A stretch of DNA of 64,000 nt, from contig CAWBVW010000001.1 of assembly GCA_963792365.1 (NCBI GenBank), positions 912,592 to 976,591 of the forward strand. Direction: 5' to 3'. This document shows, in pieces, positions 2,641 through 23,050 of the stretch; position 1 is the first letter of the stretch; each line of letters begins with the position of its first letter. Position numbers and translations under genes: made by a program. Origin of the DNA: an uncultured bacterium. Its GTDB lineage: Bacteria > Actinomycetota > Acidimicrobiia > Spongiisociales > ZC4RG35. Under the pieces are notes generated by a model, which did not search any database, was not told the DNA's origin, and was given only the letters and a program-made list of their open reading frames with translations.

Positions 2641-2643
2641 GGC

Positions 2644-4010: not shown

Positions 4011-4057
4011 CGGGATCTCGGCCTCCCCAATACCCCTCAGTCAAGGAGCGCGTGATC

Positions 4058-5298: not shown

Positions 5299-5315
5299 AC
5301 AGTTGCATCAAACTG

Positions 5316-5774: not shown

Positions 5775-5808
5775 GCCTTCCCTGACTCCCGACGAGGAGA
5801 CATAAACC

Positions 5809-7851: not shown

Positions 7852-7865
7852 GCCGCCAACAGCAC

Positions 7866-8098
7866 TCACTCCGTCTCGCCAGGGACGTATCGGCTCGACA
7901 TGAGCCATTCGAACACTTCATGCCGGAGGAAGTAGAGCTTGCGGCCGCCCTCCTTGCGGTGAGCGGGGATGATCCCTTCCCGTGCCCACAGGCGGACGAT
8001 CTGGTCTGACGTTTGTAGCAAGTCGGCGAGCTGCTTGGCGTCCATCACCGCCGGCACCTCCGGGTACCAGCGGTCGTAGTCGAAGTCCTCGCCCATCC
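7866..8098 (-). CDS. excisionase-family HTH DNA-binding protein
   Basis: C-terminal half MDAKQLADLLQTSDQIVRLWAREGIIPAHRKEGGRKLYFLRHEVFEWL is an Xis/MerR-type HTH; ORF 7866..8219, likely internal start. Confidence 0.6.
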
Positions 8099-8101
8099 CT
8101 C

Positions 8102-8371
8102 TCAGTCCCGCCCAGTGTCGTCGGATGCGGCTTCGTCCTCGGGAACGGGCTCGCCCGGCGTGTACCGCTTCATGTCCTCGAGCACCTCTTCCCGGAGGAA
8201 CCGGAACTGCTGACCCCACCGGAACGCCCGCAGCTCCCCCCGGTGCACCTTGTCCCGCACGTCTCCGATCGTCGAATGCATCATCTCCGCCACGTGAGCG
8301 GTGGTCAGCACCAGCGGGTACTCGGCCCGGAAGCGTGCAAGGATCTCACCGGAGAAGTCAGAACCGGCCAT
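8102..8371 (-). CDS. excisionase-family HTH DNA-binding protein
   Basis: AEMMHSTIGDVRDKVHRGELRAFRWGQQFRFLREEVLEDM is an Xis-like HTH; ORF 8102..8419 in tandem with the previous gene. Confidence 0.55.
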   Translation of the reverse strand: MAGSDFSGEILARFRAEYPLVLTTAHVAEMMHSTIGDVRDKVHRGELRAFRWGQQFRFLREEVLEDMKRYTPGEPVPEDEAASDDTGRD

Positions 8372-8493
8372 TACGGCGCAAGATACTCGACGAGATTTCA
8401 CATCAGAACGCATCGGCACGGATCGTTAAAGACCGGTGCCACGATTCCCATTATTAAAGCAATCGGCATCTAGGTTTAGTAAGCTGAGAACCA

Positions 8494-9684
8494 ATGCAAG
8501 GAGACTTGAACAACGAACCGTGGGGCTCCGGGGCGATGCGCACCACCCTGGCCGGCTACCAAGCCTTCCACCCGGCTCCCCTGCCGGCGTCGCTCACCTA
8601 TCCCGAAGCGACCGTGGTCAAGCTGACGGAAGCCACTGCCGCCGTCAACCGGCTGGGTGGAGCCAGCCGGCTGCTCCCCACCCCCGAGCTGCTGATCGGG
8701 CCCTACGTCCGCTTGGAGGCGATTCTCAGCTCGCGCATCGAAGGTACTCGCACCACTGTCGGCGAGCTCCTCCAATACGAGGCAGCCGGTGACGACGAGC
8801 CGACCGGTGACATCCGCGAAGTCACCAACTACGTCCGCGCCCTCAACCACGCCGTTCGACGCCTCGACGAACTCCCCCTGTCGAACCGGCTGATCCGAGA
8901 AGCCCACGCGCTGCTCATGGAAGGGGTCCGGGGCGAATACGCCAACCCAGGTGAGTTCCGCACGACACAGAACTGGATCGGAGCACCGGGCTCCACCATC
9001 AACACCGCCCGGTTCGTTCCCCCACACCCCGACGAGGCGAAGGATGCGATGGGCGAGCTGGAGCGGTTCCTCCACGACCGGAGCCTCCCCGACCTGATCG
9101 CCATCGGATTTGCCCACTACCAGTTCGAGACCATCCATCCCTTTGTCGACGGCAACGGCCGCATCGGACGGCTCCTCATCATCCTCATGCTGATCGAACG
9201 AGGAATCCTCTCGGCCCCCGTCCTCTACCTGTCCGCCTACTTCGAGCAGAACCGCCAGACCTACTACGACCTCCTCGACCACACCCGATCGACCTCGGAC
9301 CCGTTCCCCTGGCTCGACTTCTTCCTCACAGGCGTCACCGTCATGGCCACCGAAGCAGAGCAACGCGCCGTCCGCCTCATCGACCTCCAACACACCGTCC
9401 GAACCCAACTCCTCGACCAAGGTGCCTCCCCCACCGCCCTGCGACTGGGTGAGGTGATCTTCGACGTCCCATACGTCACGGCCGCCGGCATCGCCAAACG
9501 ACTCGACGTCACGTTCCCGACAGCGCAGAAGGCCATCGACGACCTCACCCGAGCCGAGCTCCTGGAAGAGATCACCGGCCAACAACGAAATCGCGTCTAC
9601 CTCGCGCGAGGAGTCCAGGACGCGGTCTACGGGGCACCAAGCGACCGTGATCCCGGACAGGAATCGGCTTCCCGACACGGATGA
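8494..9684 (+). CDS. Fic family protein (Fic/DOC AMPylase fold) with C-terminal HTH
   Basis: Canonical Fic motif HPFVDGNGRIGRLL (HxFx[DE]GNGRxxR); about 400 aa with winged-helix C-terminus, typical long Fic architecture. Confidence 0.9.
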   Translation: MQGDLNNEPWGSGAMRTTLAGYQAFHPAPLPASLTYPEATVVKLTEATAAVNRLGGASRLLPTPELLIGPYVRLEAILSSRIEGTRTTVGELLQYEAAGDDEPTGDIREVTNYVRALNHAVRRLDELPLSNRLIREAHALLMEGVRGEYANPGEFRTTQNWIGAPGSTINTARFVPPHPDEAKDAMGELERFLHDRSLPDLIAIGFAHYQFETIHPFVDGNGRIGRLLIILMLIERGILSAPVLYLSAYFEQNRQTYYDLLDHTRSTSDPFPWLDFFLTGVTVMATEAEQRAVRLIDLQHTVRTQLLDQGASPTALRLGEVIFDVPYVTAAGIAKRLDVTFPTAQKAIDDLTRAELLEEITGQQRNRVYLARGVQDAVYGAPSDRDPGQESASRHG

Positions 9685-10541
9685 GTCGGTCACCAACGCT
9701 CATCCGGTGCACATTCTGCAACACGAGAGGGCCGCGCTCTCGACAGGACGTCATTCCGAGGTGGGTCGGAAAACTCCTCGGTGGCGACGCTCCCTTCTAC
9801 GAAGACCGCTCAACGATTGCCGGCGGCGTGTTGCACCCGATCGTCCAATCCCGACCACACCACTCGAAAACGCTGTCAATCATGAAGCTGCGGAACGTGT
9901 GTGATGAGTGCAACACCGGGTGGATGCATGATCTCGAAGAGCGTGCTCGGCCCGTCTTGGCCCCGATTCTCACTAGGAGCGATGCGGTGCTGCACAGCAG
10001 TGAGGTCGGTGTCACCGTCCAATGGGCCTTGAAGACGGCACTCACTTTCGATGCCTGGTTCCGTGATCGAGCGGTCGATGCCCACGTTGGTACGTGCCGA
10101 TTCCATATCCTTCAGCGGCCCTGGCCGGGAGTCTTCGTGTGGCTCGCCCGGTATCGATACCCAAGTGAAGGCGTCGTGATGCGGCAAGCACGTTTTCGGC
10201 AAGTGAGTGGTCGATTTCCGACATCAGGTCGAGTCGCCGCCACCGATGTCGTTGTATCCATCCAGCTGGGGAACCTCGCCATCCGCGTCGCAATCCTCGG
10301 GGACGGTGGATACGGCCAACCCTCCATAGTGAAGCCAGCCGGACACTGGATCCTCGGCCACCCGATGGAGGTGCCCTACAAATGGCCAACGACGCCCGTG
10401 AGCAATCGCGAGCTCGCACAGGCCGCTGGAGCAACGCCGAGACTGCTGATCCCCACCGACGGACCAGTCGAGCGATTCACGATTCGGCTTCCCCGAGGTA
10501 CGAAGGCGGTGCGCGCCGGATCTGACGAACCCACGCCCTAG
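9681..10541 (+). CDS. hypothetical protein overlapping fic stop (Cys-cluster CTFCN...CDECN)
   Basis: Start overlaps the fic stop (ATGA coupling); two CxxC-like pairs; no assignable family. Confidence 0.6.
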   Translation: MSRSPTLIRCTFCNTRGPRSRQDVIPRWVGKLLGGDAPFYEDRSTIAGGVLHPIVQSRPHHSKTLSIMKLRNVCDECNTGWMHDLEERARPVLAPILTRSDAVLHSSEVGVTVQWALKTALTFDAWFRDRAVDAHVGTCRFHILQRPWPGVFVWLARYRYPSEGVVMRQARFRQVSGRFPTSGRVAATDVVVSIQLGNLAIRVAILGDGGYGQPSIVKPAGHWILGHPMEVPYKWPTTPVSNRELAQAAGATPRLLIPTDGPVERFTIRLPRGTKAVRAGSDEPTP

Positions 10542-10705
10542 GTCCTCGGCAAGCTCCGGGCGGTCGCAGGGTGCTTGAGCCTTGTCCGTATCTTGTCCGT
10601 GAGAGGACGAGAAACGCTGCAAGATGACACGAACGGACCACAACCGAAATCCTTGATTTCATTGGGTTTCCGGGGGTTTCTCCTGGTCAGCGACGTCGTC
10701 AGAAG

Positions 10706-10752
10706 GGGCTTTTAACCCGTTGGTTGTGGGTTCGAGTCCCACGGGGCCCACG
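10706..10752 (+). repeat. attR: 47-bp direct repeat of the tRNA-Lys 3' half (matches 1325..1371)
   Basis: Read directly: gggcttttaacccgttggttgtgggttcgagtcccacggggcccacg is identical at 1325-1371 and 10706-10752. Confidence 0.9.
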
Positions 10753-11130: not shown

Positions 11131-12212
11131 CTATCCGCTGACGGCTGCTTGTAGGTAACCGATCAGGTCGGGCACCTTGTTCAGCGTGGTGTGTCCACCC
11201 GGATACGATGTGAACGAGACATCGAGACCGGCGCCGGCGAGGCGGCTCTCGAGCAGCAGTCCAGAGTCGACCGTGCCGACCGTGCCGTCGTCGAGTTGAC
11301 CGAGCCGCTCGAGATCGGCGCCGATCGATCCATCGGGATCACGGAGCGCGAACCAGTCGGCACCGGTGACGTCGACCTGTCTCGGGGGTATCCCATCCTC
11401 AGCCACCCACAGGAAGAACCTTGCGTCCAGATCCGATGGCCAGCGGCTGGGATCGATCATCGAGGCGAGCTCCTGCTGAGCCCCAGCTTGATCGGTCTGA
11501 AAGACGGCGTCGAAGTTCTCCGAGTAGAGGAGGTACTCGCCGTCGCCCAGCACGACGCCGGTGGCGGCGGTGAGCGGCTCGTCGACCATGCATCCATCGA
11601 TCGGTTCGAGGATTGGCTGGAGGGATGCGAAGAGCGTCGGCCCCACACCTGCCGAGAACCCGTACAGGACCGTTCGTGATGGGTCGCCACCGACCTGGCG
11701 GGCGTGCTGCTGGGCGAATGCCACCGCGCAACTCGCCTCCCTTCTCCAGAGGGTGAACGAATCGAGGGTCACCGGGAAGGAGTGCTCGTCGACCCAAGTT
11801 GGTGCGAACACGATCATCCCCTCGGTGGCAGCCGCCGCGGCGATGGCGGCGTTGGTGTCGTCGTCCTTCGTACCGAGCCCGTGAAACGCCATGACCACGG
11901 GCCAGGGCCCTTCGCCCACCGGGGTGTAGATGTCCATGGATATGTCGCGGCCGTCGACCGTCATGTAGACGACATCGGACGTCTCGATGAATCGTTCGGT
12001 TGGCGGTGCGACCGTGGACGACGACGTACTTGGCACCGTTTCAGTCGTCGACGACACGGGAGCGGCCGCTGTCGTCGGTGTGACCGGGGGCGGGGGCGAC
12101 GCTTCGGTCACCGGTGAAGTGTCGGAAATGGCCGCCGACCCACAGGCAGCGACGGTCAAGGCGACAGCCGCGGCGATCGCCGTCGTCCGTTGCCCTTTTC
12201 CTGCATGCTTCA
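11131..12212 (-). CDS. alpha/beta-hydrolase fold lipoprotein (esterase/lipase-like)
   Basis: Lipobox LTVAACGS, Pro/Thr-rich linker, HGLG oxyanion motif and GFSAG nucleophile elbow (GxSxG); ORF 11131..12327, likely start about 12212. Confidence 0.75.
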
Positions 12213-12329
12213 TGAGGTGATCCCTTTCTGTTCTCGCCGCGTCCTGGCTGGACCGGCTGACCTCGGAGCAGCATGAGGGACTGGGCTTAAGGGATCGTGA
12301 CCTCCACGTAGAGTCGTGCATTAACAACT

Positions 12330-15300
12330 TTGCAACCCGTGGTGAGTGATATGCCCAGGATGGAGTTCCAAGCGCTTGGCCCGCTGGCGGTGTATCGCGA
12401 CGGCGACGCAGTGGACCTCGGATCGCCGAAACAGAAAGCGGTGTTGGCGCTGCTACTCATGCACGCCAACCAGCCAGTGGCGACTGATCGGATCATCGAG
12501 GAGATCTGGGGCGACGACAGTGATGGGAAGATCAACGCCCTGCGCGTCTACGTGTCGCGGTTGCGGTCGGCCCTGGAGCCCGACCGGGGGCGAGGCGGGA
12601 GCTCCGTCCTCGAGACCAGCGGGAACGGATACCGGTTGGCGGTCGAGCCCGATCACTTCGACGTGGCCCGCTTCGAGCGGGAGCTCGCCAGGGCACGGCC
12701 GCTTCGAGGAGAGGACCCGGCCGGAACTGCGGAGGTCCTGGCGTCGGCGCTGAGCCTCTGGCGAGGTCCGGCGTACGCCGACTTCGCCTACGACAACTTC
12801 GCTCAGGTGGAGCGGGCCCGCCTACACGAGGCGCGCGTCGTGGCCTACGAGGACCGTATCGAGTCCGACTTGGCGCGGGGTCTGTCAGGCGAGCTGGTCA
12901 GCGAGCTCGAAGTGCTGCGTGACGAGCATCCGCTACGGGAACGCCTCGTGAGCCATCAGGCGCTGGCGCTCTACCGATCGGGCCGCCCCGCCGACGCCCT
13001 CCGGGCCATCGAACGATTCCGTCGCAACCTCGGTGGCGAGCTTGGCCTCGACCCTTCGCCTGGCCTGCTTCGTCTCGAAGAGCAGATTCTGCTCCACGAT
13101 CCCGCGATCCAACCCCGACATGGTGCGGCTGGTCGGGACAGGCCGAGAACAGAGGTTGCCAACCCCTTCAAGGGTCTCAGAGCCTTCACCAGCGACGACG
13201 CTCCGAACTTCTTCGGGCGGAATGCCCTGGTCGCAGAATTGCTGCGCGTCATCGGCCAGGGTCAGCGGCTGGTCGCAGTCATGGGCGCCAGTGGTTCCGG
13301 GAAGTCGAGCGTCGTCAACGCCGGGCTGCTTCCGGCATTGGCCAAGGGTGCCCTCACGGGTTCCGATCTCTGGCTGGTGGCGAACATGATGCCCGGCGCC
13401 CACCCTTTCGCAGAGCTCGAGGTAGCGCTCCTCCGCACGATCATCGACCCCCCTGACAGCCTGGACGAACAACTCCGGGACGGCGACGCCGGATTCATCC
13501 GAGCGGCCTTGCGGATACTCCCTGACAACGACAGCCATCTGCTGCTGGTGATCGACCAGTTCGAAGAGCTGTTCACGCTGGTCGATGACGCCGTCCGTCG
13601 TCGGTTCCTGTCGAACCTGGTCGCCGCGGTCGACGATCCCCACGAGCGCGTCACTGTTGTGATCACCCTGCGGGCCGACTTCTACGATCGGCCGCTCCAG
13701 CACCCCGAGTTCGGGGCCAGGCTCGGGGCAGGGGTCGTCAACGTCACGCCCATGACGGCCGAGGAGTTGGAGGAGGCCGCCCTCGAGCCTGCCCGGCAGG
13801 TGGGTGTCGGCTTCGAGCCGGCGCTACTGGGACAACTCATCTCAGACGTCGGGAGCCAGCCGAGCGCGCTGCCTCTCTTCCAGTACACGATGACGGAGCT
13901 ATTCGACCGTCGCGGTGGAGACACGCTTCTGGCCTCGTCCTACAGAGCGATGGGGGGCGTCGAAGGAGCGCTCCAACGACGCGCCACCGACTTGTACGAG
14001 CAGCTCGATCCGGCCGAGCAGGAGGCAGCACGCCAGCTGTTCTTACGGCTCGTGACGGTGTCGGAGCACGACAAGAGGACCCGGCGCCGCGTGGCGGCGA
14101 GGGAGATCGTGTCGCTGGTCGACGACACGGTGACGATGTACGCCGTGTTGAAGAAGTTCGGCGACCACCGGCTGCTTTCCTTCGACGCCGATCCCCTGAC
14201 CGGGGCGCCCACCGTCGAGGTTGCGCATGAATCACTGCTCACGGCATGGCCAACCCTGGCCGGATGGATCGACGACAGCCGGGATGATCTTCGTCGGCAT
14301 GTCAGCCTCACCGTGGCACTACGGGAGTGGCAGCTCGCCGACCACGACCCGAACTACCTGATGACGGGCGCCCGTCTCTCCGAATACGAGGCATGGAGTC
14401 GGACCTCCCAAGTGTCGCTCAACTGCGCCGAACGTGCCTACCTCGACGCCGGTGCCGCCAAACGAGCCGAGGAACGCCACATCGAGGAGAAGCAGCGTCG
14501 GCGAGAGACCAGATCCCGTCGGCGGATGTGGGCATTGATCGCCGTGATGGCGAGCGCCCTCGGCGTCGCTGCGCTCGTGCTCACTGGTGTCTTCGCCAGC
14601 GAAACGCCGGAAGTGATGTTCTTCGCCAACCGGCTGGATGACCAGTGGTTTGCCAATGTCGGGTCGGGTCTCGACCGGGCCGAGCGCGAGCTCGACATGG
14701 AACTGGTTGACGTGACATGGGCGGTCGATCCCGTGGCGGAGTTTCGGCAGCTCGCGGCGTCGGGTGCCCAGTTCATCGTCGTCAGCGATGACGTGTTCAT
14801 AGAGGTGGACCCGTCGGTGCTGGCTGACCATCCCGACGTCCAATTCGGCATCATCGAAGGGACGGCGAGCGCAGACAACGTGACCTCGGTCGAGTTCGCC
14901 AACGAGGAGGGGGCGTTCCTCGCCGGGGTGGCCGCCGCCTCCAAGAGCGAGACGGGCATCGTCGGATTCATCGGGGGAAGGAAGGAGCCGGAAGTCGAGG
15001 CGTTCCGTGCCGGATTCGAGGCGGGCGTGCAATCGGTTGATCCGCGGACCGAGGTGCTCGCCGTGTATGTCGATCAGTTCAACGAGATCAACGGTTTCGG
15101 CCGGCCCGACCTTGGAGAGGCCAGAGCGCGTGCTCTCTACCAAAGAGGGGCCGACGTGCTGTTCGCGGCGGCCGGGACCTCGGGGCACGGCATGTTCTCC
15201 GCGGCCGTAGCCGAGTCCGAGGCGCTGGGACGGGACCTGTGGGCGATCGGCGTCGACAACGACCAATGGTTCGAAGTGGAGCCCGAACAACAACAGCACG

Positions 15301-16199
15301 TGCTCACGTCCATAGTGAAACGGGGCGACCTCGCCGCGTACCGCCTGGTCGAGCACATGCTGAACGGCGGGCCGACCGGCGTCGCTTTCCGGATGGGACT
15401 CGCCGAGGGTGGCATGGCCTATTCAACCCAGAGCGACGCCCTGACCTCTGACATCGTCGCCAGGCTGGACGACGCGATCGTCGACATCTCCGAGAGCCGG
15501 ATCACGGCGCCGCCGGCCCCGACCGGTCCGACGCTGACCGTCGACTACCAGGGGAACGAAATTGTGGCGCCGCGAGGCATAGACGGTCTGGACCTGCGAG
15601 TTGCGATCGAACCGGGTACCTACCAAGTCGATGCACTCGGTGTGCCAATCGCCATCAATCTCGGTCCGGAGTGGTGGGTCCTCGACAACATCGAGGGCGC
15701 CACCGGGTTCGGGCACCCGGAGTCCAGCGGCCACGGGGATCGTGAGGTGTGGTTCTTCCGCCCGACCCTTCTTGCGGACCCGACCCAGCCCGGGGCCGAC
15801 GTCCAAGACCAGGTGTGGTGGCCCTTGGAGGACATCGACGGCTGGCTCGAGGCACTGGTCGACGGCATCGTGACCGGAGACCCGCAGGAGGTGGAGGTCG
15901 GTGGTCGGCCCGCCACCTACTTCGAGGCCGAGGTGACCGACCCCGACGTCTGCGGCCCGTTCCAACATTGCGCGGGCTTCGTCATCAACACGTTCCTCGG
16001 CCCCAGCCAGGTCAGCGCCTGGTCATTCGAGCCGGGCGTACATCACAGAGTGTGGTGGATCGACGCCGGGGACCAACCGCCGCTCGTCATCATCGCCGCA
16101 GACTTCACCGGCGACCATGATTTCGGGAAGGCGGTCGACGAACTGCTCGATGGACTCGTCATCGGCGAGTTCGGCCCACACCCGGTCGACGCTGGGTAG
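12330..16199 (+). CDS. multidomain regulator: SARP-type winged-helix + BTAD, STAND P-loop NTPase, TM helix, BMP-family (PnrA/Med-like) binding domain, C-terminal extension
   Basis: N-term OmpR/PhoB-type DNA-binding + BTAD (AfsR/DnrI-like); FKGLRAFTSDDAPNFFGR...VMGASGSGKSSV Walker A of a STAND/nSTAND-like NTPase; hydrophobic helix MWALIAVMASALGVAALVLTGVF; BMP-family signature EGAFLAGVAAASKSETGIVGFIGG. Confidence 0.8.
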   Translation: MQPVVSDMPRMEFQALGPLAVYRDGDAVDLGSPKQKAVLALLLMHANQPVATDRIIEEIWGDDSDGKINALRVYVSRLRSALEPDRGRGGSSVLETSGNGYRLAVEPDHFDVARFERELARARPLRGEDPAGTAEVLASALSLWRGPAYADFAYDNFAQVERARLHEARVVAYEDRIESDLARGLSGELVSELEVLRDEHPLRERLVSHQALALYRSGRPADALRAIERFRRNLGGELGLDPSPGLLRLEEQILLHDPAIQPRHGAAGRDRPRTEVANPFKGLRAFTSDDAPNFFGRNALVAELLRVIGQGQRLVAVMGASGSGKSSVVNAGLLPALAKGALTGSDLWLVANMMPGAHPFAELEVALLRTIIDPPDSLDEQLRDGDAGFIRAALRILPDNDSHLLLVIDQFEELFTLVDDAVRRRFLSNLVAAVDDPHERVTVVITLRADFYDRPLQHPEFGARLGAGVVNVTPMTAEELEEAALEPARQVGVGFEPALLGQLISDVGSQPSALPLFQYTMTELFDRRGGDTLLASSYRAMGGVEGALQRRATDLYEQLDPAEQEAARQLFLRLVTVSEHDKRTRRRVAAREIVSLVDDTVTMYAVLKKFGDHRLLSFDADPLTGAPTVEVAHESLLTAWPTLAGWIDDSRDDLRRHVSLTVALREWQLADHDPNYLMTGARLSEYEAWSRTSQVSLNCAERAYLDAGAAKRAEERHIEEKQRRRETRSRRRMWALIAVMASALGVAALVLTGVFASETPEVMFFANRLDDQWFANVGSGLDRAERELDMELVDVTWAVDPVAEFRQLAASGAQFIVVSDDVFIEVDPSVLADHPDVQFGIIEGTASADNVTSVEFANEEGAFLAGVAAASKSETGIVGFIGGRKEPEVEAFRAGFEAGVQSVDPRTEVLAVYVDQFNEINGFGRPDLGEARARALYQRGADVLFAAAGTSGHGMFSAAVAESEALGRDLWAIGVDNDQWFEVEPEQQQHVLTSIVKRGDLAAYRLVEHMLNGGPTGVAFRMGLAEGGMAYSTQSDALTSDIVARLDDAIVDISESRITAPPAPTGPTLTVDYQGNEIVAPRGIDGLDLRVAIEPGTYQVDALGVPIAINLGPEWWVLDNIEGATGFGHPESSGHGDREVWFFRPTLLADPTQPGADVQDQVWWPLEDIDGWLEALVDGIVTGDPQEVEVGGRPATYFEAEVTDPDVCGPFQHCAGFVINTFLGPSQVSAWSFEPGVHHRVWWIDAGDQPPLVIIAADFTGDHDFGKAVDELLDGLVIGEFGPHPVDAG

Positions 16200-16550
16200 T
16201 CCCGGCGGATGCGGCGCTGGTGTCGCGCACCCTCGCAAGACCCTGGCTCCCCCGGTCTTGTCCGCCGGTCGTCCTCTGACGCTGCGCATGGAGCGGCGTC
16301 GACGAGGAGTCGGTGCCCGTACCAGAGCAGCAGGAGTCTGCACCGGGTGCGACTCCTCACCCGCTTGCTGTGAATGTGTTCGCTTCGGACCGAACAGGTG
16401 GCCGAAGTCATCCATCGTCACCGGATGATGCCTCCGGACGTTCGTCACTTGTGTGGTTGCCACGAGGGTTGTGCTGGCCCTGCAGATTCAGCGGAACCAG
16501 GCTGAGACCGGTGGGGTACTCTCGAATCTCAGTCGACGAAGGGCAATGCC

Positions 16551-17105
16551 GTGCTTCGGGGCAACGGAATCGAATTGCGGCTCGTCCGGGAGGGCGACCT
16601 GGGGACCCTGTACAACCTTCTGACAGATCTCGGCACGAGGGGCAGCTACTTCCCGCTCGGGGTGATGAGCGAAACCCGCCTGCGCGCCGAGTTCAACGAG
16701 AACGGCTTCTGGGATCAAGAAGAGGGCATGCTGCTGATCGTCGACCATGAGGATCAGATCGTTGGAGAAATCGAATACTTCCCGATCATCCACTATCTGC
16801 AGGGCTACGAGATCTCCTACCAGCTGTTCGGAACACAGCACTCAGGAAAAGGACACGCCACCGAAGCGGTCGATCTGTTGGTCCGCTACCTCTTCGGACG
16901 CAAACGGGTCAATCGTATGCAACTGAACATCCACCCTGACAACGCTGCCTCGAAGAGAGTGGCGGAGAAATGCGGCTTCACCTTCGAGGGGTTGATGCGG
17001 GGTTGTTGGTTCCACCAAGGTGAATACCACGACTTGGAAGTCTGGTCGCTGCTCAGGGCCGAATCCCAAGCCCGAGTGACGGCCGACAGATCAACCGCTG
17101 GTTGA
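16551..17105 (+). CDS. GNAT family N-acetyltransferase (RimJ/RimL-like)
   Basis: 184 aa; acetyl-CoA binding region QLFGTQHSGKGHATEAV...RVAEKCGF typical of the GNAT fold. Confidence 0.8.
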   Translation: MLRGNGIELRLVREGDLGTLYNLLTDLGTRGSYFPLGVMSETRLRAEFNENGFWDQEEGMLLIVDHEDQIVGEIEYFPIIHYLQGYEISYQLFGTQHSGKGHATEAVDLLVRYLFGRKRVNRMQLNIHPDNAASKRVAEKCGFTFEGLMRGCWFHQGEYHDLEVWSLLRAESQARVTADRSTAG

Positions 17106-17519: not shown

Positions 17520-18010
17520 CGCGTCAGCCTGGCGCCGCAGTACATCGACGTCCCCACCCGAGCCGAACTCCTGGCAGAGATCACCGGCCAACAACGAAAT
17601 CGCATCTGTCTCGCACGAGGAGTCCAGGACGCGGTCTACGGGGCACCAACCGACCGTCATCCCGGACAGGAATCGGCTTCCCAACACGGATGAGTCGGTC
17701 GCCAACGCTCATCCAGTGCACATTCTGCAACACGAGAGAACCGCGCTCTCGCGAGGACGTCATTCCGAGGTGGGTCGGAAGACTCCTCGGTGGCGACGCG
17801 CCCTTCTACGAAGACCGCTCAACGACTGCCGGCGGCGTGTTGCACCCGATCGTCCAGTACCGACCACACCACTCGAAAACGCTGTCAGTCATGAAGCTGC
17901 GGAACGTGTGTGATGAGTGCAATACCGGGTGGATGCACGATCTCGAAGAGCGTGCTCGGCCCGTCCTGGCCCCGATTCTCACTAGGAGCGATGCGGTGCT
18001 GCACAGCGGT
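17520..18010 (+). pseudogene. truncated duplicate of the fic 3' end plus the 5' half of its downstream partner gene
   Basis: About 490 bp, roughly 90% identical to 9555-10010; encodes LAEITGQQRNRICLARGVQDAVYGAP... and MSRSPTLIQCTFCNTREPRSREDVIPRWVGRLLGG... (ORF 17441..18265), then diverges. Confidence 0.8.
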
Positions 18011-18287
18011 GGCGTCGGTCGGCGTCAAGCTTCACTTGCGCCTCGATCATGTCCGCTGTCGGGGATGATCGGTGCCAGACGCATCCTGGCACCGATCGCC
18101 TTCACCGCCCGGGACAAACGGCCCCACAGTGGCGGTCGAAGTCGTTGTGGTCGAGTGGGCGCGACTGGCGACGACCGCCATCGAGATCCTCTCTCGATGA
18201 GACGTCCACCGTCCGCATCGCAGCGACACGCGTCTTCGATCGAACCGATCGCCTCCGCATCTTGACGCTCCCGCCAACGTGCAAAGA

Positions 18288-18834: not shown

Positions 18835-18953
18835 GGGGTTTGCCCTCCCGTGATTGGAGCCCTGACCTCGTGTCGGGCCGGTAGGGTGAAACGTACGAAA
18901 AGGGTTGGTTGGGCACATCGGGAGGTCTCCCTATTTCGACCGGTTTTCTGCGG

Positions 18954-20480
18954 ATGGGCGAACTCATCGCGACGCTCGCGCTCGCTCAAGACAATGCCTT
19001 CGGCCAGCCCCTCGAATCACAACTGCGATCGTGCCTCTTGTCGGTCTGGATGGCGGAGGCGGCAGGATTGGACTCTGCGACTTGCGACACCGTGTACTGG
19101 GTCGCTCTGCTTCGATACATCGGTTGCACCGGACACGCGCACGAGGTGGCGACGCTGCTCGGCGACGAGATCGCCATCCGCGCTCAGACGCTCATACACG
19201 ACGCCGGCAACCCCGAGGAGGTCATGGCCGACGTGGTGGCATTCGCCACGGCCGGCAAGTCATCACCGGAGCGCGAAAAGATCGTCGCGATGATCGATGC
19301 CGGTGCCCACGAATGGGCCGTGTACAACTTCGCCTCGGGGTGTGAAGTCGGAGACATGTTCCTCCAACGCCTCGGGTTCGGACCGGCGGTGCGCGAACCC
19401 CTCGCCCACACGTTCGAACGTTGGAACGGGAACGGCTTCCCCAACCATGTCGGCGGGATGGACATCCCGCTCCCGATGCGGATCGTTCATGTGTGCCACG
19501 ACATGGAGGCCATCGGACGGCGCTTCTCGCCGGATCGGGCTCTCGACGCTGCCGCCGACCGTCGGGACCGCACCTATGACCCCGACCTCGCCGACCTCTT
19601 CGGCATCCACGGACTGGACTGGTTCAAGGAACTCGACAGTGTCGATCCCTGGGAGAGCGCTCTTGCCCGTGAACCGAAGCCACATCGCACGCTCACCGGC
19701 CCCGACCTCGACTCCGCCCTCGAGACGCTGGCCGATTTCATCGACCTGAAGTCGCCGTTCATGGCCGGGCACAGCCGGCGCTGCGCCGAGGTGGCGATGC
19801 TGGCGGCCGAGAACATCGGCCTGCCGGCGCGGGAGGTCGAGGCCGTTCGGAGGGCCGCACTGATCCACGAACTCGGGACCACCGCCATTCCGAATTCGAT
19901 TTTGGACAAGCCGCGTGCTCTCACCAGATCCGAGCGCGACCGGATGGAGCTTCACACGATGCTCACAGAACAGATGCTCAGCCGTTCGCCGCTGTTGGAA
20001 GATCTGAACTCGATCGCCTCCTGTCATCACGAGCGGTGCGATGGGACGGGCTACCACAAGCGCTCGACGCGCTCGACTCAGAGCGATGGAGCGTGCATCC
20101 TGGCGGCCACCGACGTGTTCGTGGGCATGACTACGGAGCGCGCTGATCGGCCGGCCCACGGCGAGGATCAGGCAGCAGCTGAACTCCGCCGCCTGGCATC
20201 TGCCGGATGCATCGATCGGACCAGTGCCGAAGCGGTTGTCGCAGCGGGCGTGGGTGATTCACGCCGAATCCGCCGAGAGCTCCCAGCAGGTCTCACACAA
20301 CGGGAAGCGGAGGTGCTTGGGCTGGCTGCGCGGGGGTTCACCACCAAGGACATCGCCGTGCGGCTGTTCATCTCCCCGAAGACGGCCGACCACCACATCC
20401 AGCACGTCTACACCAAGATCGGTGTGTCGACACGTGCGGCAGCAGCGTTGTGGGCCGTGGAGCATTCACTCGTCGGCTGA
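18954..20480 (+). CDS. HD-GYP-type HD domain protein fused to a LuxR-family HTH (regulator)
   Basis: HD-GYP signature ALIHELGTTAIP...SCHHERCDGTGYHKR; C-terminal LuxR HTH LTQREAEVLGLAARGFTTKDIAVRLFISPKTADHHIQHVYTKIGVSTRAAAA. Confidence 0.8.
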   Translation: MGELIATLALAQDNAFGQPLESQLRSCLLSVWMAEAAGLDSATCDTVYWVALLRYIGCTGHAHEVATLLGDEIAIRAQTLIHDAGNPEEVMADVVAFATAGKSSPEREKIVAMIDAGAHEWAVYNFASGCEVGDMFLQRLGFGPAVREPLAHTFERWNGNGFPNHVGGMDIPLPMRIVHVCHDMEAIGRRFSPDRALDAAADRRDRTYDPDLADLFGIHGLDWFKELDSVDPWESALAREPKPHRTLTGPDLDSALETLADFIDLKSPFMAGHSRRCAEVAMLAAENIGLPAREVEAVRRAALIHELGTTAIPNSILDKPRALTRSERDRMELHTMLTEQMLSRSPLLEDLNSIASCHHERCDGTGYHKRSTRSTQSDGACILAATDVFVGMTTERADRPAHGEDQAAAELRRLASAGCIDRTSAEAVVAAGVGDSRRIRRELPAGLTQREAEVLGLAARGFTTKDIAVRLFISPKTADHHIQHVYTKIGVSTRAAAALWAVEHSLVG

Positions 20481-22106: not shown

Positions 22107-23050
22107 TTGCGGGCGCCCAGCGCTGCGGCTTGCCCGGAACCGATCCACGCCGACCTGCTCGAGCCCCGATGGCCTTCGCCGGTGGACGTGACCGCATGTC
22201 TGCTGGACGGTGACCCTTCCATCCGATGGCAGGTCCTTGCCGACCTCGAGGGTGCGACGCCGGCTGCCGTGGCGTACGAGCGGACCCGGGTCGAACACGA
22301 AGGATGGGGCGCTCGACTCCTCTCACTTCAGGACCCGAACGGGCTGTAGGCGGCGGCGCTTGTTTCGCCGGCGACTTCCCGGGTGAGGAGGCAGGCCAGC
22401 CTTGGACAGCCACCATGCACACACTGCAGACGCTTCAGATCCTGGGACTGGATCCGGCGTCAGAATCTGCTCGCCGTGCCGTCGAGTTGGTGGCCGAGAA
22501 CGGGCGGTGGGAACACGATGGCCAGCGTTGTTTCGACGGCGACGTGGAACCGTGCATCAACGGCCGGACGATCTAGACGGGGTCGGATTTTGGTGTCGAC
22601 GTGGCACAGATCGTGGAACGGATCCTCACGGAGCGCCTGGCCGAGGGTGGGTGGAACTGCGAGGCCGAGAACGGGTCGGTGGTGTCGTCGATCGACACCA
22701 CCATCAACGTGCTCGATGGCCTGGCTGAGTTCGAGCGGGCAACCGGTGGTTCGCTCGAGGTGGTCGAAGCGCGGCGCAGTGGCGAGGAGTATCTGCTGGA
22801 ACGACGGCTGTTCCGCCGCAAGACCACGGGTGAGGTGGCCGACCCGACATTCCTCGACATCGCGTTCCCCTACTACTGGCGGTACGACGTGCTGCGGGCG
22901 CTCGACTACTTTCGGCGCACCGGGGCGCAGCGCGACTCGCGGATGGAAGAGGCTGTCGAGCTGGTTCGACCGAAACGCGGGCCCGACGGACGGTGGCTCC
23001 GAGACCGGATACATCCCGGCAGAGCCTTCTTCGACATCGAGGGACCGAAT
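22107..23050 (+). pseudogene. frameshifted paralog of the 50398..51333 gene (prenyltransferase/terpene-cyclase-repeat-like protein)
   Basis: Three consecutive ORFs (22107..22349, 22226..22576, 22601..23050 part) together align, at about 75-85% aa identity, along the 311-aa product of 50398..51333; two frame changes near 22340 and 22580; C-terminus diverges. Confidence 0.75.

What the first reader, a model, noticed from the sequence alone, without database searches (positions are those of the whole stretch)
12330..16199. Unusual one-component architecture: SARP DNA-binding + STAND NTPase + TM + extracytoplasmic BMP-family ligand-binding domain
AfsR/SARP-STAND proteins normally end in cytoplasmic TPR sensor repeats. 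Here the P-loop NTPase (FKGLRAFTSDDAPNFFGR...GASGSGKSS) is followed by a single hydrophobic helix and a BMP/PnrA-like periplasmic-binding-protein fold (TGIVGFIGG motif) of the kind that binds nucleosides. A further about 350-aa C-terminal domain follows. This suggests a membrane-spanning STAND switch that senses an extracellular small molecule and directly activates transcription. It lies right after the island attR, next to a lipoprotein hydrolase.
Basis: partly seen in the sequence, partly recalled or inferred. Interest (0 to 1): 0.6.

Follow-up and report, generated by a model that had tools for sequence, protein, structure and literature searches.

The report
Membrane-spanning SARP–STAND transcription factor with outside sensor
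This gene encodes a single-pass membrane protein that joins a nucleoside-receptor-like domain outside the cell to an ATP-driven switch and a DNA-binding activator inside. It belongs to a widespread but unstudied family, which suggests that NLR-type switches can be wired as transmembrane receptors.

Summary
ORF 12330..16199 (+), 1289 aa, likely starting at 12351, contains in order:
- a SARP DNA-binding module (Trans_reg_C + BTAD);
- a full-length nSTAND1 NTPase (E 1e-114);
- one strong TM helix (aa 733-757, Arg-rich before, acidic after);
- a Bmp/PnrA-fold domain (E 1e-46; TM-score 0.83 to PnrA);

The NTPase is nSTAND1, not the NB-ARC of AfsR.

The tail is an unmodelled domain. It also occurs in about 300 clusters of exported lipoproteins and has a conserved Cys pair. 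This independently places it outside the cell.

The residues that hold ribose and stack the base in solved Bmp proteins are conserved. The base-specificity loop varies.

The fusion is not a one-off. All of the best 120 homologue clusters share it, mostly in Acidimicrobiia. Its nSTAND1-TM core recurs in Chloroflexota and Actinomycetota with kinase, SARP, GerE or HTH outputs and WD40, Bmp or SBP ectodomains.

Best reading: a ToxR/CadC-like membrane-tethered one-component activator gated by a STAND switch, which probably senses an extracellular nucleoside-like ligand. The ligand, the DNA targets and how the signal crosses the membrane are all inferred.

I found no paper describing this architecture. 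I rate it a new variant of known kinds, interest about 0.6.

The parts
12330..16199 (+). Whole gene for the SARP-nSTAND1-TM-Bmp-tail protein. It is 1289 aa from TTG 12330. The likelier start is ATG 12351, or ATG 12360 to match the homologue consensus 'MEFxALGP'.
   Evidence: P0001, 100% identical, 1282 aa; consensus N-terminus.
12423..12638 (+). OmpR-type winged-helix DNA-binding domain (Trans_reg_C), aa 32-103.
   Evidence: E 4e-14; aligns to the N-terminus of AfsR (NF053617, residues 27-334) and to OmpR/PhoB-type response-regulator output domains.
12657..13091 (+). BTAD (bacterial transcriptional activation domain), aa 110-254. Together with the wHTH it forms the SARP module.
   Evidence: E 6e-36, covering the full model (1-146 of 146).
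13164..14351 (+). nSTAND1 NTPase module, aa 279-674. Motifs: Walker A GASGSGKSS (K325), Walker B LLLVIDQFEE (D409, E412, E413), TLRADF (R448) and VAHES (H633-E634, an MHD-like His-acidic motif).
   Evidence: E 1.3e-114, model positions 1-378 of 379. K325 in 119 of 120; D409, E412, E413, R448, H633 and E634 in 120 of 120 homologues.
14352..14525 (+). Juxtamembrane linker, aa 675-732. It is charged, probably helical, and ends in RRRETRSRRR directly before the membrane helix.
   Evidence: The conserved 'LNxxExxFLxAS' segment and the R-rich stop-transfer signal appear in the family consensus.
14526..14600 (+). Single transmembrane helix, aa 733-757 (MWALIAVMASALGVAALVLTGVFAS).
   Evidence: KD 2.37, the only peak above 1.6 in the protein; conserved in 117 of 120, with charge +3.8 inside and -1.1 outside; the same helix lies a median of 422 aa after Walker A in 54 of 57 relatives.
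14631..15470 (+). Extracytoplasmic Bmp/PnrA-like type-I periplasmic-binding-protein domain, aa 768-1047. Putative ligand contacts are W773 (with F774 adjacent), E843, F892, F923, V975-D976 and K997.
   Evidence: E 1.2e-46. PnrA 2fqw at 2.7e-32 and BmpD 6shu at 4.9e-25; model pLDDT 93, TM 0.83 to PnrA; contact residues and their conservation.
15471..16196 (+). C-terminal beta-rich tail domain, aa 1048-1289. It has a conserved Cys pair, C1208 and C1214 (CGPFQHC). It belongs to a domain family absent from Pfam that otherwise occurs in exported lipoproteins. The fold is weakly PsbP/Mog1/LpqN-like.
   Evidence: no Pfam hit; model pLDDT 91. Mtb Apa at E 3e-4, plus LpqN, MTC28 and PsbP at TM 0.35-0.55; 320 cluster representatives; lipoboxes, and 94 of 99 full-size hits with an N-terminal signal or anchor; no Pfam family.
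12214..12350 (.). Divergent intergenic region between the hydrolase and the regulator. It holds a -10-like TAGAGT, conserved in three orthologous loci, flanked by two TTAAC/TTAAG-containing boxes about 34 nt apart. No SARP-type direct repeats were found.
11131..12213 (-). Divergently transcribed lipoprotein alpha/beta hydrolase, 360 aa. It is the conserved neighbour in the query's subclade and a candidate target gene.
   Evidence: BD-FAE at 2e-5, below cut-off; the same neighbour sits next to P0001, P0002 (86% identity) and P0006 (65% identity).
10706..10752 (+). attR of the tRNA-Lys island, an exact 47-nt repeat of 1325-1371. This is context only, not part of the gene's function.

Best explanation
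The protein is a membrane-integrated one-component transcription activator with a STAND ATPase switch between the sensor and the output.

Topology is N-in/C-out. The SARP DNA-binding module and the nSTAND1 NTPase are cytoplasmic. One helix crosses the membrane. The Bmp/PnrA-fold Venus-flytrap domain and a lipoprotein-type beta-rich domain face the cell envelope.

Proposed sequence of events:
1. The Bmp domain binds a small extracellular ligand, most likely a nucleoside or another ribosyl compound.
2. Lobe closure changes how the ectodomains pack or associate.
3. The change travels through the TM helix and the charged juxtamembrane helix and releases autoinhibition of nSTAND1.
4. ADP is exchanged for ATP and the NTPase modules oligomerise at the membrane.
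5. The SARP modules come side by side, bind repeats overlapping a -35 region and recruit RNA polymerase, as shown for AfsR. The protein stays membrane-tethered, as ToxR and CadC do.

A likely target is the divergent gene for an exported protein. Here that is a lipoprotein hydrolase. Other subclades have other exported proteins in the same position.

Shown here in silico: domain identities, order, topology signals, intact catalytic and ligand-site residues, family-wide conservation, and modular relatives.

Inferred: the ligand class, the transmembrane coupling, oligomerisation, DNA binding while tethered, and the target genes.
For: Domain calls and order.

Topology:
- The same bias in 28 of 33 WD40-type relatives.
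- The modules after the TM helix are families that are normally exported: Bmp and SBP_bac_1.
- The tail's relatives outside this family are lipoproteins or signal-anchored proteins, 94 of 99 full-size hits.
- The tail has a conserved Cys pair in a protein with only three Cys.

Switch competence:
- Walker A Lys is present in 119 of 120.
- Walker B Asp and the two Glu, sensor Arg448 and the His633-Glu634 motif are present in 120 of 120.
- The analogous HD motif is the activation switch in AfsR (bioRxiv 10.64898/2026.09.02.748808).

Sensor competence:
- The model has pLDDT 93. Its best PDB matches are nucleoside-bound PnrA, BmpD, S. pneumoniae PnrA and Lbp.
- Equivalents of the BmpA contact set Phe27/Asp98/Phe151/Phe176/Val224-Asp225/Lys242 (PMC13325309) are W773, E843, F892, F923, V975-D976 and K997.
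- Conservation across 120 homologues: D or E in 109, F in 98, aromatic in 111, D in 111, K in 109.

Output mechanism precedent:
- SARP dimers bind direct repeats at the -35 region and contact RNA polymerase, and the AfsR NOD/TPR autoinhibits (PMC10936776).
- ToxR and CadC act as membrane-tethered OmpR-type activators (PMC5430869 and PMC7888679, listed).

Modularity argues for a sensor-switch-output logic. The nSTAND1-TM core is constant, with the TM helix a median of 422 aa after Walker A in 54 of 57 relatives. Around it, outputs (Pkinase 30, BTAD 26, HTH 6, GerE 4 of 56) and ectodomains (WD40 33 of 54, the rest mostly Bmp, also SBP_bac_1) are exchanged.

Each subclade keeps its own adjacent gene for an exported protein, usually divergent.
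Against: There is no experimental data on any member.

No SARP-type heptamer repeats at 11- or 22-nt spacing occur in the divergent intergenic region of three orthologous loci. The adjacent gene is therefore not shown to be a target, and the regulon is unknown.

The base-recognition loop differs from solved nucleoside binders. The PnrA Asp27/Ser28 equivalents are Ala/Asn, and the Asn after the stacking aromatic is Phe774. That loop is highly variable across the family, so the ligand could be something else. Riboflavin, B6, atrazine/guanine and non-transport roles all occur in the Bmp fold.

How a single helix would control a STAND switch is unknown. Known STAND sensors contact the NOD directly (PMC10936776).

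Oligomerisation of 1289-aa membrane-tethered chains on DNA is sterically untested.

Topology rests on hydropathy, charge bias and domain-family arguments, not on a dedicated predictor or an experiment.
Confidence: 0.6

Rival explanations
1. Envelope-surveillance or conflict sensor. The nSTAND1-TM receptors would be immune-type sensors that detect invader-derived or damage-derived cues at the cell surface. They would switch on defence or stress genes (SARP output) or phosphorylation cascades (kinase output), rather than sensing a nutrient or signal metabolite.
For: - nSTAND1 was defined in predicted conflict systems (PMC8195603; PMC10907252).
- TM plus extracellular PBP modules were noted on caspase proteins of the EACC1 conflict system (PMC7159879 section 33).
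- Ectodomains and tails are highly variable between close relatives, and MAGs carry several paralogues (L015 and L016 come from one MAG).
- The gene sits next to an integrative island carrying TIR and Fic cargo.
Against: - PADLOC finds no defence-family match beyond a 16-bit P-loop touch.
- The outputs are regulators (SARP, kinase, GerE, HTH), not toxic effectors.
- The Bmp pocket keeps small-molecule contact residues.
- The gene lies outside the island. Another contig is colinear from 10576 onward but has different island cargo.
- The neighbours in five other loci are ordinary housekeeping or metabolic genes.
Confidence: 0.12
2. Transporter co-sensor. The tethered Bmp domain would not signal by ligand binding alone. 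It would dock onto a Bmp-type nucleoside ABC permease encoded elsewhere, so the regulator reads transport flux, as CadC does with LysP or Bce-type systems do.
For: - The Bmp family is by definition the substrate-binding partner of ABC importers (Pfam description; PMC7093131).
- CadC's lysine signal comes through a transporter, which shows the principle in ToxR-like receptors (abstract of PMC3096576).
Against: - No ABC permease or ATPase gene is adjacent in any of 25 loci examined.
- The window has no second Bmp gene.
- The same position in relatives is taken by WD40 propellers, which have no transporter partner.
- Part of the ectodomain surface is occupied by the tail domain. pTM 0.84 for the two-domain model suggests a fixed arrangement.
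Confidence: 0.1
3. Proteolytic release. The membrane form is a latent precursor. The signal triggers cleavage near or within the TM helix, and the soluble SARP-nSTAND1 fragment then acts like a cytoplasmic AfsR-type regulator.
For: - Cleavage-dependent activation has been reported for CadC (title of PMC11484849).
- A soluble product would avoid the steric problem of oligomerising on DNA at the membrane.
Against: - No site-2 protease or other protease is a conserved neighbour of the query's subclade. The HExxH secreted proteins next to another subclade are uncharacterised and absent here.
- No conserved cleavage motif was identified.
- ToxR and CadC show that tethered action is feasible.
Confidence: 0.08
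4. The hydrophobic segment is not membrane-spanning, and the whole protein is cytoplasmic. The Bmp domain would then act as an intracellular ligand sensor, as LacI-type regulators use the same fold.
For: - Type-I PBP folds do serve as cytoplasmic sensors in LacI/GalR regulators. LacI-family structures appear among the distant fold matches.
- No dedicated topology predictor was available.
Against: - The segment scores KD 2.2-3.0 over 19 residues, flanked by 3-5 Arg/Lys on the N-side, in 117 of 120 homologues.
- The closest structural relatives are exported lipoprotein SBPs, not LacI.
- The tail family is exported.
- A conserved Cys pair lies in the tail.
Confidence: 0.04

Closest known systems
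AfsR and other 'large' SARPs (SARP-NB-ARC-TPR) of Streptomyces
   Same: - N-terminal OmpR-type wHTH plus BTAD, followed directly by a STAND-class P-loop NTPase. NCBIfam AfsR aligns over residues 9-326.
- A conserved His-acidic switch motif.
- The expected logic is the same: a sensor controls the nucleotide state of the NOD, which controls SARP activity (PMC10936776; bioRxiv 10.64898/2026.09.02.748808).
   Different: - The NTPase is nSTAND1, not NB-ARC.
- There is no TPR sensor.
- The sensor is on the other side of the membrane, so it cannot autoinhibit by direct NOD contact.
- The AfsR equivalog score is 173 bits against a cut-off of 1430.
- Taxonomy is Acidimicrobiia rather than Streptomyces, and no biosynthetic gene cluster is seen in the neighbourhood.
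ToxR/CadC-type membrane-integrated one-component receptors
   Same: - N-terminal cytoplasmic OmpR-type winged-helix activator, a single TM helix and a C-terminal extracytoplasmic sensor in one polypeptide.
- DNA is presumably bound while the protein is membrane-tethered (PMC5430869, PMC7888679).
- CadC's periplasmic domain also has a functional disulfide (PMC3096576).
   Different: - ToxR and CadC have no BTAD and no NTPase.
- Their sensors have different folds.
- They are about 300-500 aa and proteobacterial.
- There is no sequence relationship beyond the wHTH.
- Here an energy-dependent STAND switch of about 400 aa is inserted between the DNA-binding module and the membrane.
Bmp/PnrA-family nucleoside substrate-binding lipoproteins (T. 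pallidum PnrA/TmpC, B. burgdorferi BmpA/BmpD, S. pneumoniae PnrA, C. thermocellum Lbp) and B. subtilis/B. halodurans Med
   Same: - Same Pfam family and fold.
- Ribose-contacting Asp/Glu, Asp and Lys and the aromatic cradle are conserved.
- Med (2hqb, 'transcriptional activator of comK') shows that a Bmp-fold protein can serve signalling rather than transport.
   Different: - It is anchored by fusion to a TM helix instead of a lipid-modified Cys.
- There is no adjacent ABC transporter.
- The base-specificity loop is divergent.
- A second ectodomain follows it.
nSTAND1 conflict-system proteins and the caspase/EACC1 'System 4' of Kaur et al. 2020/2021
   Same: - Same NTPase clade.
- Kaur et al. 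recorded TM helices followed by an extracellular PBP among the variable C-terminal modules (PMC7159879 section 33).
- Same phyla with multicellular or filamentous habits (Actinomycetota, Chloroflexota).
   Different: - Those proteins carry caspase or cyclase effectors and pair with an EACC1 gene. Here the output is a transcription activator.
- The upstream neighbours tested from other subclades (for example L009, L005) have no EACC1 hit, and the query's own upstream neighbour is the hydrolase.
- There is no PADLOC match.
- The SARP-nSTAND1-TM-Bmp combination and the generality of the nSTAND1-TM core were not described in the passages read.
Single-pass receptor Ser/Thr kinases with extracytoplasmic sensor domains (PknB-type; planctomycete STKs with periplasmic WD40/TPR)
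   Same: A cytoplasmic output, a single TM helix and an extracytoplasmic repeat or PBP sensor. Periplasmic WD40 on single-pass kinases is documented (PMC11032199). Relatives of this protein carry exactly such kinase outputs.
   Different: Classical receptor kinases have no STAND module between the kinase and the membrane. The query's output is DNA binding, not phosphorylation.

Membership tests
SARP (Streptomyces antibiotic regulatory protein) family | N-terminal OmpR-type winged-helix DNA-binding domain (Trans_reg_C) | tested here: met
   PF00486, aa 32-103, E 4e-14, 52.9 bits against a cut-off of 26.2.
SARP (Streptomyces antibiotic regulatory protein) family | Bacterial transcriptional activation domain (BTAD) immediately after the wHTH | tested here: met
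   PF03704, aa 110-254, E 6e-36, full model length.
SARP (Streptomyces antibiotic regulatory protein) family | Binds direct heptamer repeats spaced 11 or 22 bp, with the 3' repeat 8 bp from the -10, and activates transcription | tested here: inconclusive
   no such repeats in the adjacent intergenic region of three orthologous loci. Other promoters could not be tested because the motif is unknown. DNA binding itself cannot be tested with these tools.
AfsR-like 'large SARP' (SARP-NB-ARC-TPR) | Central NOD of the NB-ARC clade | tested here: not met
   no NB-ARC hit. The region is nSTAND1 at E 1e-114.
AfsR-like 'large SARP' (SARP-NB-ARC-TPR) | C-terminal cytoplasmic TPR sensor | tested here: not met
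   no TPR domain after the NTPase. The only TPR-S touch (E 0.14) lies inside BTAD. A TM helix and a Bmp domain follow instead.
AfsR-like 'large SARP' (SARP-NB-ARC-TPR) | Reaches the NCBIfam AfsR equivalog cut-off | tested here: not met
   173 bits against a cut-off of 1430. Only residues 9-326 align.
STAND NTPases, nSTAND1 clade (PF20703) | Full-length match to the nSTAND1 profile | tested here: met
   E 1.3e-114, 384 bits, model positions 1-378 of 379.
STAND NTPases, nSTAND1 clade (PF20703) | Intact Walker A, Walker B, sensor Arg and a His-acidic (MHD-like) motif | tested here: met
   K325 in 119 of 120; D409, E412, E413, R448, H633 and E634 in 120 of 120. Reading VAHES as MHD-like is by analogy, not by structure.
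STAND NTPases, nSTAND1 clade (PF20703) | Nucleotide-dependent oligomerisation switch | not testable with these tools
   This needs ATPase assays, SEC-MALS or cryo-EM.
Bmp/PnrA family of ABC substrate-binding proteins (PF02608) | Profile and fold membership | tested here: met
   159.5 bits against a cut-off of 24.1. PnrA at 2.7e-32. Foldseek E 4e-24, TM 0.83.
Bmp/PnrA family of ABC substrate-binding proteins (PF02608) | Nucleoside-contact residues: aromatic cradle plus ribose-binding Asp/Asp/Lys | tested here: met
   W773 (with F774 adjacent), E843, F892, F923, V975-D976 and K997 are present and conserved. The base-specificity loop is divergent, so the exact ligand stays open.
Bmp/PnrA family of ABC substrate-binding proteins (PF02608) | Signal peptide with lipobox (free lipoprotein) | tested here: not met
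   The domain is internal, tethered by the TM helix at aa 733-757.
Bmp/PnrA family of ABC substrate-binding proteins (PF02608) | Encoded with ABC permease and ATPase genes | tested here: not met
   no ABC transporter genes adjacent in 25 loci.
ToxR/CadC-like membrane-integrated one-component receptors | Cytoplasmic N-terminal wHTH, a single TM helix and a periplasmic C-terminal sensor in one chain | tested here: met
   This is architectural resemblance only.
ToxR/CadC-like membrane-integrated one-component receptors | Homology of the sensor and linker to ToxR/CadC, with no NTPase | tested here: not met
   the sensor is Bmp, a 396-aa nSTAND1 module is inserted, and no ToxR or CadC family hit appears in Pfam or NCBIfam.
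Known anti-phage defence systems (PADLOC) | Match to a defence-system protein model | tested here: not met
   only mad3 at E 0.0013, 16 bits, over the P-loop.

The most novel reading that the evidence does not exclude
This protein may be one member of a large, unrecognised class of transmembrane STAND (NLR-like) receptors in Actinomycetota and Chloroflexota.

In this class an nSTAND1 ATP switch is controlled from outside the cell through a single helix by interchangeable ectodomains (Bmp, SBP_bac_1, WD40 propellers, lipoprotein-type domains). It drives interchangeable outputs (SARP or LuxR/HTH transcription factors, Ser/Thr kinases).

That would overturn the working assumption that STAND/NLR switches are strictly intracellular receptors whose sensor touches the NOD. 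It would also add an energy-gated mode of bacterial transmembrane signalling, distinct from two-component, ECF, ToxR-like and receptor-kinase systems.
Probability: 0.45. Interest if true: 0.8.

Novelty: new variant of a known kind. Interest (0 to 1): 0.62.

Why it matters
STAND/NLR switches are treated as cytosolic receptors in which the sensor domain physically clamps the nucleotide-binding domain. Here the sensor is separated from the switch by a membrane. If the protein works as proposed, the nucleotide state of a NOD can be set through a single transmembrane helix.

That would be a new coupling mechanism. It can be tested directly with a soluble ectodomain, a defined candidate ligand class, and the His-acidic autoactivation mutants already validated in AfsR.

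It would also add a membrane-bound class to the SARP regulators. Current classifications list only small, medium, NB-ARC-TPR and LAL types.

It gives a handle on environmental sensing in Acidimicrobiia, an abundant but almost uncultured group of soil and water Actinomycetota.

The modular relatives have the same core with kinase, LuxR or HTH outputs and WD40 or SBP sensors. This suggests a general receptor chassis that could be re-engineered for biosensing.

The tail defines a domain family of about 300 clusters of exported proteins that has no Pfam model.

Tried and rejected
1. Fusion artefact, pseudogene or mis-assembly: rejected. An identical protein occurs on two contigs, and more than 100 homologue clusters share the same order.

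2. AfsR orthologue: rejected. The NOD is nSTAND1, not NB-ARC. There is no TPR, and the equivalog score is far below cut-off.

3. Island cargo: rejected for the current island. The gene lies 1.6 kb beyond attR. Contig L001 is colinear from 10576 onward although its island content differs. A second, truncated copy of the island's right end downstream (17543-18019) leaves open that the block sits in an old integration hotspot.

4. Conserved operon with an ABC transporter or a biosynthetic cluster: not found in 25 loci.

5. SARP boxes in the divergent promoter: none. The sigma-70 and terminator consensus scans of 12000-16700 found nothing, which is uninformative in a 65% GC actinobacterium.

6. 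EACC1-type partner gene: the small upstream ORFs of other subclades have a Gly-rich TM helix but no Pfam EACC1 hit.

7. Defence-system membership: no PADLOC match.

8. Tail function by fold: only weak PsbP/Mog1/LpqN-like matches, TM 0.35-0.55. I do not assign a function from them.

9. Technical dead ends:
- The word-indexed search with the tail found only fragments of the same family. The exhaustive HMMER search was needed to find its lipoprotein relatives.
- Several literature searches returned nothing relevant.

Full report
**What is there.**
The window has a single long ORF at 12330..16199 on the + strand, 1289 aa from a TTG. The public copy P0001 is 100% identical and starts at Met8 (nt 12351). 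The consensus N-terminus of homologues, 'MEFxALGP', would fit ATG 12360.

Pfam gives four confident domains in this order:
- Trans_reg_C, aa 32-103, E 4e-14
- BTAD, aa 110-254, E 6e-36
- nSTAND1 (PF20703), aa 279-674, E 1.3e-114, covering 378 of 379 model positions
- Bmp (PF02608), aa 768-1047, E 1.2e-46

Nothing in Pfam or NCBIfam covers aa 1048-1289. The P-loop domain is nSTAND1. There is no NB-ARC hit. AAA_16 is marginal and NACHT is below its cut-off. The AfsR equivalog model aligns only to residues 9-326, at 173 bits against a cut-off of 1430.

**Topology.**
A Kyte-Doolittle scan finds one hydrophobic peak in the whole protein, aa 733-757 (2.37 over 19 residues). It is preceded by RRRETRSRRR and followed by an acidic stretch.

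Among the 120 best homologues, 117 have the equivalent peak (2.2-3.0) at the same place. Mean net charge is +3.8 in the 15 residues before it and -1.1 after it. This is the classic N-in/C-out signature.

Three further observations place the C-terminal 530 residues outside the cell:
1. The module after the helix is always a family that is normally exported. It is Bmp here and SBP_bac_1 in a relative.
2. The tail has two nearly invariant cysteines, C1208 and C1214 in 'CGPFQHC', in a protein with only three Cys in total.
3. An exhaustive profile search with the tail finds 320 cluster representatives outside the word-index reach, 211 at E ≤ 1e-10. The ones I read are lipoproteins: a signal peptide ending in a lipobox (…AAC|G), an acidic or Pro-rich linker, then one to three copies of the domain with the same 'CGPxxCxGF' pair. 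Of the 99 hits of at least 380 aa, 94 have an N-terminal signal or anchor segment. The five exceptions look like fragments.

Pfam has no model for this domain.

**The sensor.**
A model of aa 758-1289 built on 57 family sequences is confident (mean pLDDT 93.2, pTM 0.84). Its best PDB matches are T. pallidum PnrA with inosine (E 4e-24, TM 0.83), B. burgdorferi BmpD with adenosine, S. pneumoniae PnrA with four nucleosides, and C. thermocellum Lbp with guanosine. After these come AtzT, RfuA and Med. The sequence search of the PDB gives the same order.

The literature defines a shared contact set. In BmpA numbering it is Phe27 and Phe176 (base stacking, essential by mutagenesis), Phe151, Val224, and Asp98, Asp225 and Lys242 (ribose) (PMC13325309; PMC7093131).

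I mapped these through the HMMER alignments to PnrA and BmpD and the family alignment:

| BmpA residue | Equivalent here | Conservation in 120 homologues |
|---|---|---|
| Phe27 | W773 (motif D-x-x-W-[N/F]-A-N, matching canonical D-K-S-F-N) | varies, part of the N-lobe loop |
| Asp98 | E843 | D in 92, E in 17 |
| Phe151 | F892 | F in 98 |
| Phe176 | F923 | F 97, W 9, Y 5 |
| Val224-Asp225 | V975-D976 | D in 111 |
| Lys242 | K997 | K in 109 |

BmpD also has Glu at the Asp98 position. HMMER's register for F923 against PnrA is off by one residue. The family conservation settles which residue is meant.

The N-lobe loop that tunes base specificity in PnrA (Asp27/Ser28) is different here and varies strongly across the family. 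Distant members lack the first aromatic.

I conclude that the pocket is intact and of the ribosyl or nucleoside type in this clade. The exact ligand is open, and paralogues probably differ in what they bind.

**The tail.**
Modelled alone, aa 1056-1289 has pLDDT 91.1. It is a beta-rich alpha/beta domain. The only PDB similarities are weak (E 3e-4 to 0.03, TM 0.35-0.55). They are M. tuberculosis Apa, LpqN and MTC28, plant and cyanobacterial PsbP, Mog1, BT_1490 and T6SS immunity proteins. This is the PsbP/Mog1-like group, which includes mycobacterial envelope proteins. I treat it as a hint about location, not function.

The tail is a swappable module. Of the 120 homologues, about 32 have this tail and a group has a related 208-aa version. 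The rest have no tail, or unrelated tails of about 90, 125 or 250-330 aa.

**The switch and the output.**
Walker A Lys325 is present in 119 of 120 homologues. Walker B Asp409 with Glu412 and Glu413, Arg448 in 'TLRADF', and His633-Glu634 in 'VAHES' are present in 120 of 120.

A His-Asp motif at the corresponding place in AfsR is the activation switch, and mutating it makes AfsR autoactive (bioRxiv 10.64898/2026.09.02.748808). For AfsR it is established that two SARP modules bind direct repeats overlapping the -35 element and contact RNA polymerase. The C-terminal NOD/TPR part autoinhibits until ATP binds (PMC10936776).

The query has the same SARP module fused to a STAND NOD of a different clade.

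**How common it is.**
The full-length search returned 7088 hits at E ≤ 1e-10. The best 120 clusters all show Trans_reg_C + BTAD + nSTAND1 + Bmp, apart from a few fragments. Where named, they are called 'BTAD domain-containing putative transcriptional regulator' or 'basic membrane lipoprotein Med / DNA-binding SARP'.

In the species-representative genome set, more than 580 loci matched. The full architecture is in Acidimicrobiia MAGs (Acidimicrobiaceae, Ilumatobacteraceae, Acidimicrobiales), a few other Actinomycetota and one Chloroflexia MAG. Some MAGs carry two copies. The window's organism is therefore an uncultured member of the Acidimicrobiia. The best species representatives are 56-60% identical.

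**A wider pattern.**
Many Chloroflexota (Anaerolineae, Aggregatilineales, Promineifilaceae) and Actinomycetota loci matched only residues ~268-750. That span is the nSTAND1 domain up to the membrane helix.

I extracted those genes. 54 of 57 have a single strong hydrophobic helix a median of 422 residues (range 405-470) after Walker A. The WD40-type relatives show a positive-inside bias in 28 of 33 cases.

Pfam on individual proteins shows these architectures:
- Pkinase-nSTAND1-TM-WD40
- BTAD-nSTAND1-TM-WD40
- HTH-Pkinase-nSTAND1-TM-WD40-Bmp
- SARP-Pkinase-nSTAND1-TM-SBP_bac_1

A census gives WD40 after the helix in 33 of 54 loci, with the rest mostly Bmp. Before the NTPase it gives Pkinase in 30 of 56, BTAD in 26, HTH_3/31 in 6 and GerE in 4.

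The sample is biased towards close relatives of this NTPase. Even so, it shows a constant nSTAND1-TM core with interchangeable outputs and ectodomains. That is the pattern expected of a sensor-switch-output receptor.

**Genomic context.**
The tRNA-Lys gene lies at 1297-1370. Its 3' 47 nt (1325-1371) recur exactly at 10706-10752. Between them lie a tyrosine integrase (1579-2637, -), a CAP12/Pycsar-type TIR protein, a DUF433 protein, a 680-aa protein with a neocarzinostatin-family domain, and a Fic protein.

A second contig with the identical regulator (L001) is 99.9% identical to the window from 10576 onward. It has different island cargo. The regulator therefore belongs to the flanking chromosome, not the island.

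The divergent neighbour 11131-12213(-) is a lipoprotein alpha/beta hydrolase. It is kept next to the regulator in the 86%- and 65%-identical orthologues but not in more distant ones.

A neighbour clustering over 25 loci found no ABC transporter. Instead it found subclade-specific genes immediately upstream, usually divergent, and all of them encode exported proteins:
- a ~200-aa HExxH protein in 8 loci;
- a 110-131-aa protein with two 'IAxWARxNGLTGLSPASL' repeats in 5 loci;
- an anchored protein with three to five 'AADAARWNGLAAY' repeats in 3 loci;
- the hydrolase in 3 loci.

None has a Pfam family.

The intergenic region 12214-12350 aligned with its two orthologues keeps a -10-like TAGAGT flanked by two TTAAC/TTAAG boxes about 34 nt apart. 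It has no 7-mer direct repeats at 11- or 22-nt spacing. A SARP box is therefore not evident, and the target remains unknown.

**Mechanism, and what is inferred.**
Shown in silico: domain identities and order, topology signals, intact catalytic and ligand-contact residues, family-wide conservation, and the modular relatives.

Inferred:
- that ligand binding to the Bmp domain is the input;
- that the signal crosses the membrane through the single helix and the charged juxtamembrane helix;
- that this releases the nSTAND1 switch, by ADP/ATP exchange and oligomerisation;
- that the SARP modules then activate transcription while tethered, as ToxR and CadC do (PMC5430869, PMC7888679).

The main weakness is the coupling step.

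**Rivals.**
- A conflict or envelope-surveillance role. For it: the history of the nSTAND1 clade and the variable ectodomains. Against it: no PADLOC match, regulator-type outputs, and ordinary neighbourhoods.
- Co-sensing with a distant Bmp-type ABC permease. No partner was found.
- Proteolytic release of the cytoplasmic part. There is no evidence either way.
- A cytoplasmic, non-membrane reading. This is strongly disfavoured.

**Comparison with what is known.**
Current SARP classifications list small, medium, large (NB-ARC-TPR) and SARP-LAL types. The 2024 review does not contain the word 'membrane'.

The systematic STAND survey of 2026 treats transcriptional STANDs (MalT, GutR, AfsR) as non-immune clades. 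In the passages I searched, it mentions transmembrane segments only as an effector label.

The nearest prior notes are:
- one sentence in Kaur et al. [quoted passage not shown]
- oyster proteins with an extracellular domain, a TM helix and an intracellular DED-TRADD-N-STAND region;
- periplasmic WD40/TPR domains on planctomycete receptor kinases.

I found no paper describing SARP-nSTAND1-TM-Bmp proteins or the generality of the nSTAND1-TM core. The searchable library is limited to open-access papers and bioRxiv, so absence there is not proof of absence.

**Verdict.**

The protein works like a ToxR/CadC-type receptor with an AfsR-like STAND-gated SARP output and a PnrA-like sensor. By the defining features tested, it is a member of none of those three families as wholes. 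It is a member of the SARP, nSTAND1 and Bmp domain families.

I class it as a new variant of known kinds, already present but unstudied in databases. Interest is 0.62. It would be higher if the transmembrane-STAND reading proves general.

Noticed in passing
window 1297-10752: A 9.4-kb integrative island at tRNA-Lys with exact 47-nt att repeats (1325-1371 and 10706-10752). It carries a tyrosine integrase (1579-2637, -), a CAP12/Pycsar-type TIR-domain protein (3384-4007), DUF433 (5316-5771), a 680-aa protein ending in a neocarzinostatin-family domain (5809-7848) and a Fic protein (8494-9681). Contig L001 has the same attR and flanks but different cargo (HNH, HTH_17, SEC-C). The site is therefore a strain-variable hotspot with defence-like cargo.
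   Followed up: partly
window 9534-10010 and 17543-18019: A 477-nt direct repeat at 94% identity. It is a second, truncated copy of the island's right end (the Fic 3' end plus the 5' part of the 286-aa ORF). It lies downstream of the regulator and the GNAT gene, and is also present in L001. The hydrolase-regulator-GNAT block is thus bracketed by two island right-ends. This may be the scar of an older integration. No second attR-like sequence was found with up to 8 mismatches.
   Followed up: partly
L012, L014, L018, L019, L023, L024, L025, L029 (immediately upstream of the regulator gene, ~5.2-5.9 kb in most loci): A conserved divergent neighbour in another subclade. It is a ~200-aa secreted protein with an HExxH motif ('LHE[LI][AG]HAW') and conserved cysteines. 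It has no Pfam family, only a weak Peptidase_M91/SprT touch. It may be a small exported metallopeptidase that is controlled by the receptor or acts on it.
   Followed up: partly
L002 7413-7808, L005 503-847, L007 5534-5929, L009 5492-5824, L011 5414-5773; also L010, L013, L015: Small exported proteins next to the regulator in two further subclades. One type has two tandem 'IAxWARxNGLTGLSPASL' repeats after a Gly-rich anchor helix. The other has three to five 'AADAARWNGLAAY' repeats. They have no Pfam family and their function is unknown. They could be partner proteins or ligand precursors for the ectodomain.
   Followed up: partly
window 12214-12350; L003 7789-8006; L004 5855-6006: The divergent promoter region keeps 'CGTAGAGTC' (a -10-like TAGAGT) in three orthologous loci. 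It is flanked by two TTAAC/TTAAG-containing boxes about 34 nt apart. In the window these are 'CTTAAGGGATCGTGACC' and 'ATTAACAACTTTGCAAC'. This is not the SARP repeat pattern. It may be a binding site for another regulator.
   Followed up: partly
proteins P0130-P0278: The tail defines a domain family of about 200 aa with no Pfam model: 320 clusters at 50% identity. It is typically found in 430-520-aa lipoproteins after an acidic or Pro-rich linker, sometimes in 2-3 copies (P0133, 902 aa). One member follows RTX repeats (P0261) and one apparently follows an SBP_bac_1 fragment (P0139). The hallmark is the 'CGPxxCxGF' Cys pair and a C-terminal 'GxPxPHP'.
   Followed up: partly
L005 4908-6781 (also L006): Directly downstream of the P0015 orthologue lie a 154-aa sigma-70 region-4 protein and a 470-aa Peripla_BP_4 protein. 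This looks like another signalling pair built on a periplasmic-binding-protein fold.
   Followed up: no
window 18909-20480: A 523-aa regulator with two HD_5/HD (HD-GYP-like) domains and a C-terminal GerE/LuxR HTH. It sits two genes downstream of the regulator and is conserved in L001.
   Followed up: no
window 22180-23035 vs 50479-51336 (inverted, 74%); 59422-59831 vs 59941-60350 (tandem, 73%): Two pairs of diverged repeated segments elsewhere in the window, probably paralogous genes. Not examined.
   Followed up: no
L015 and L016 (same MAG CAYFYC01); L049/L077; L053/L070: Several MAGs carry two or more nSTAND1-TM receptor genes. This is consistent with paralogous expansion with different ectodomains.
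   Followed up: no
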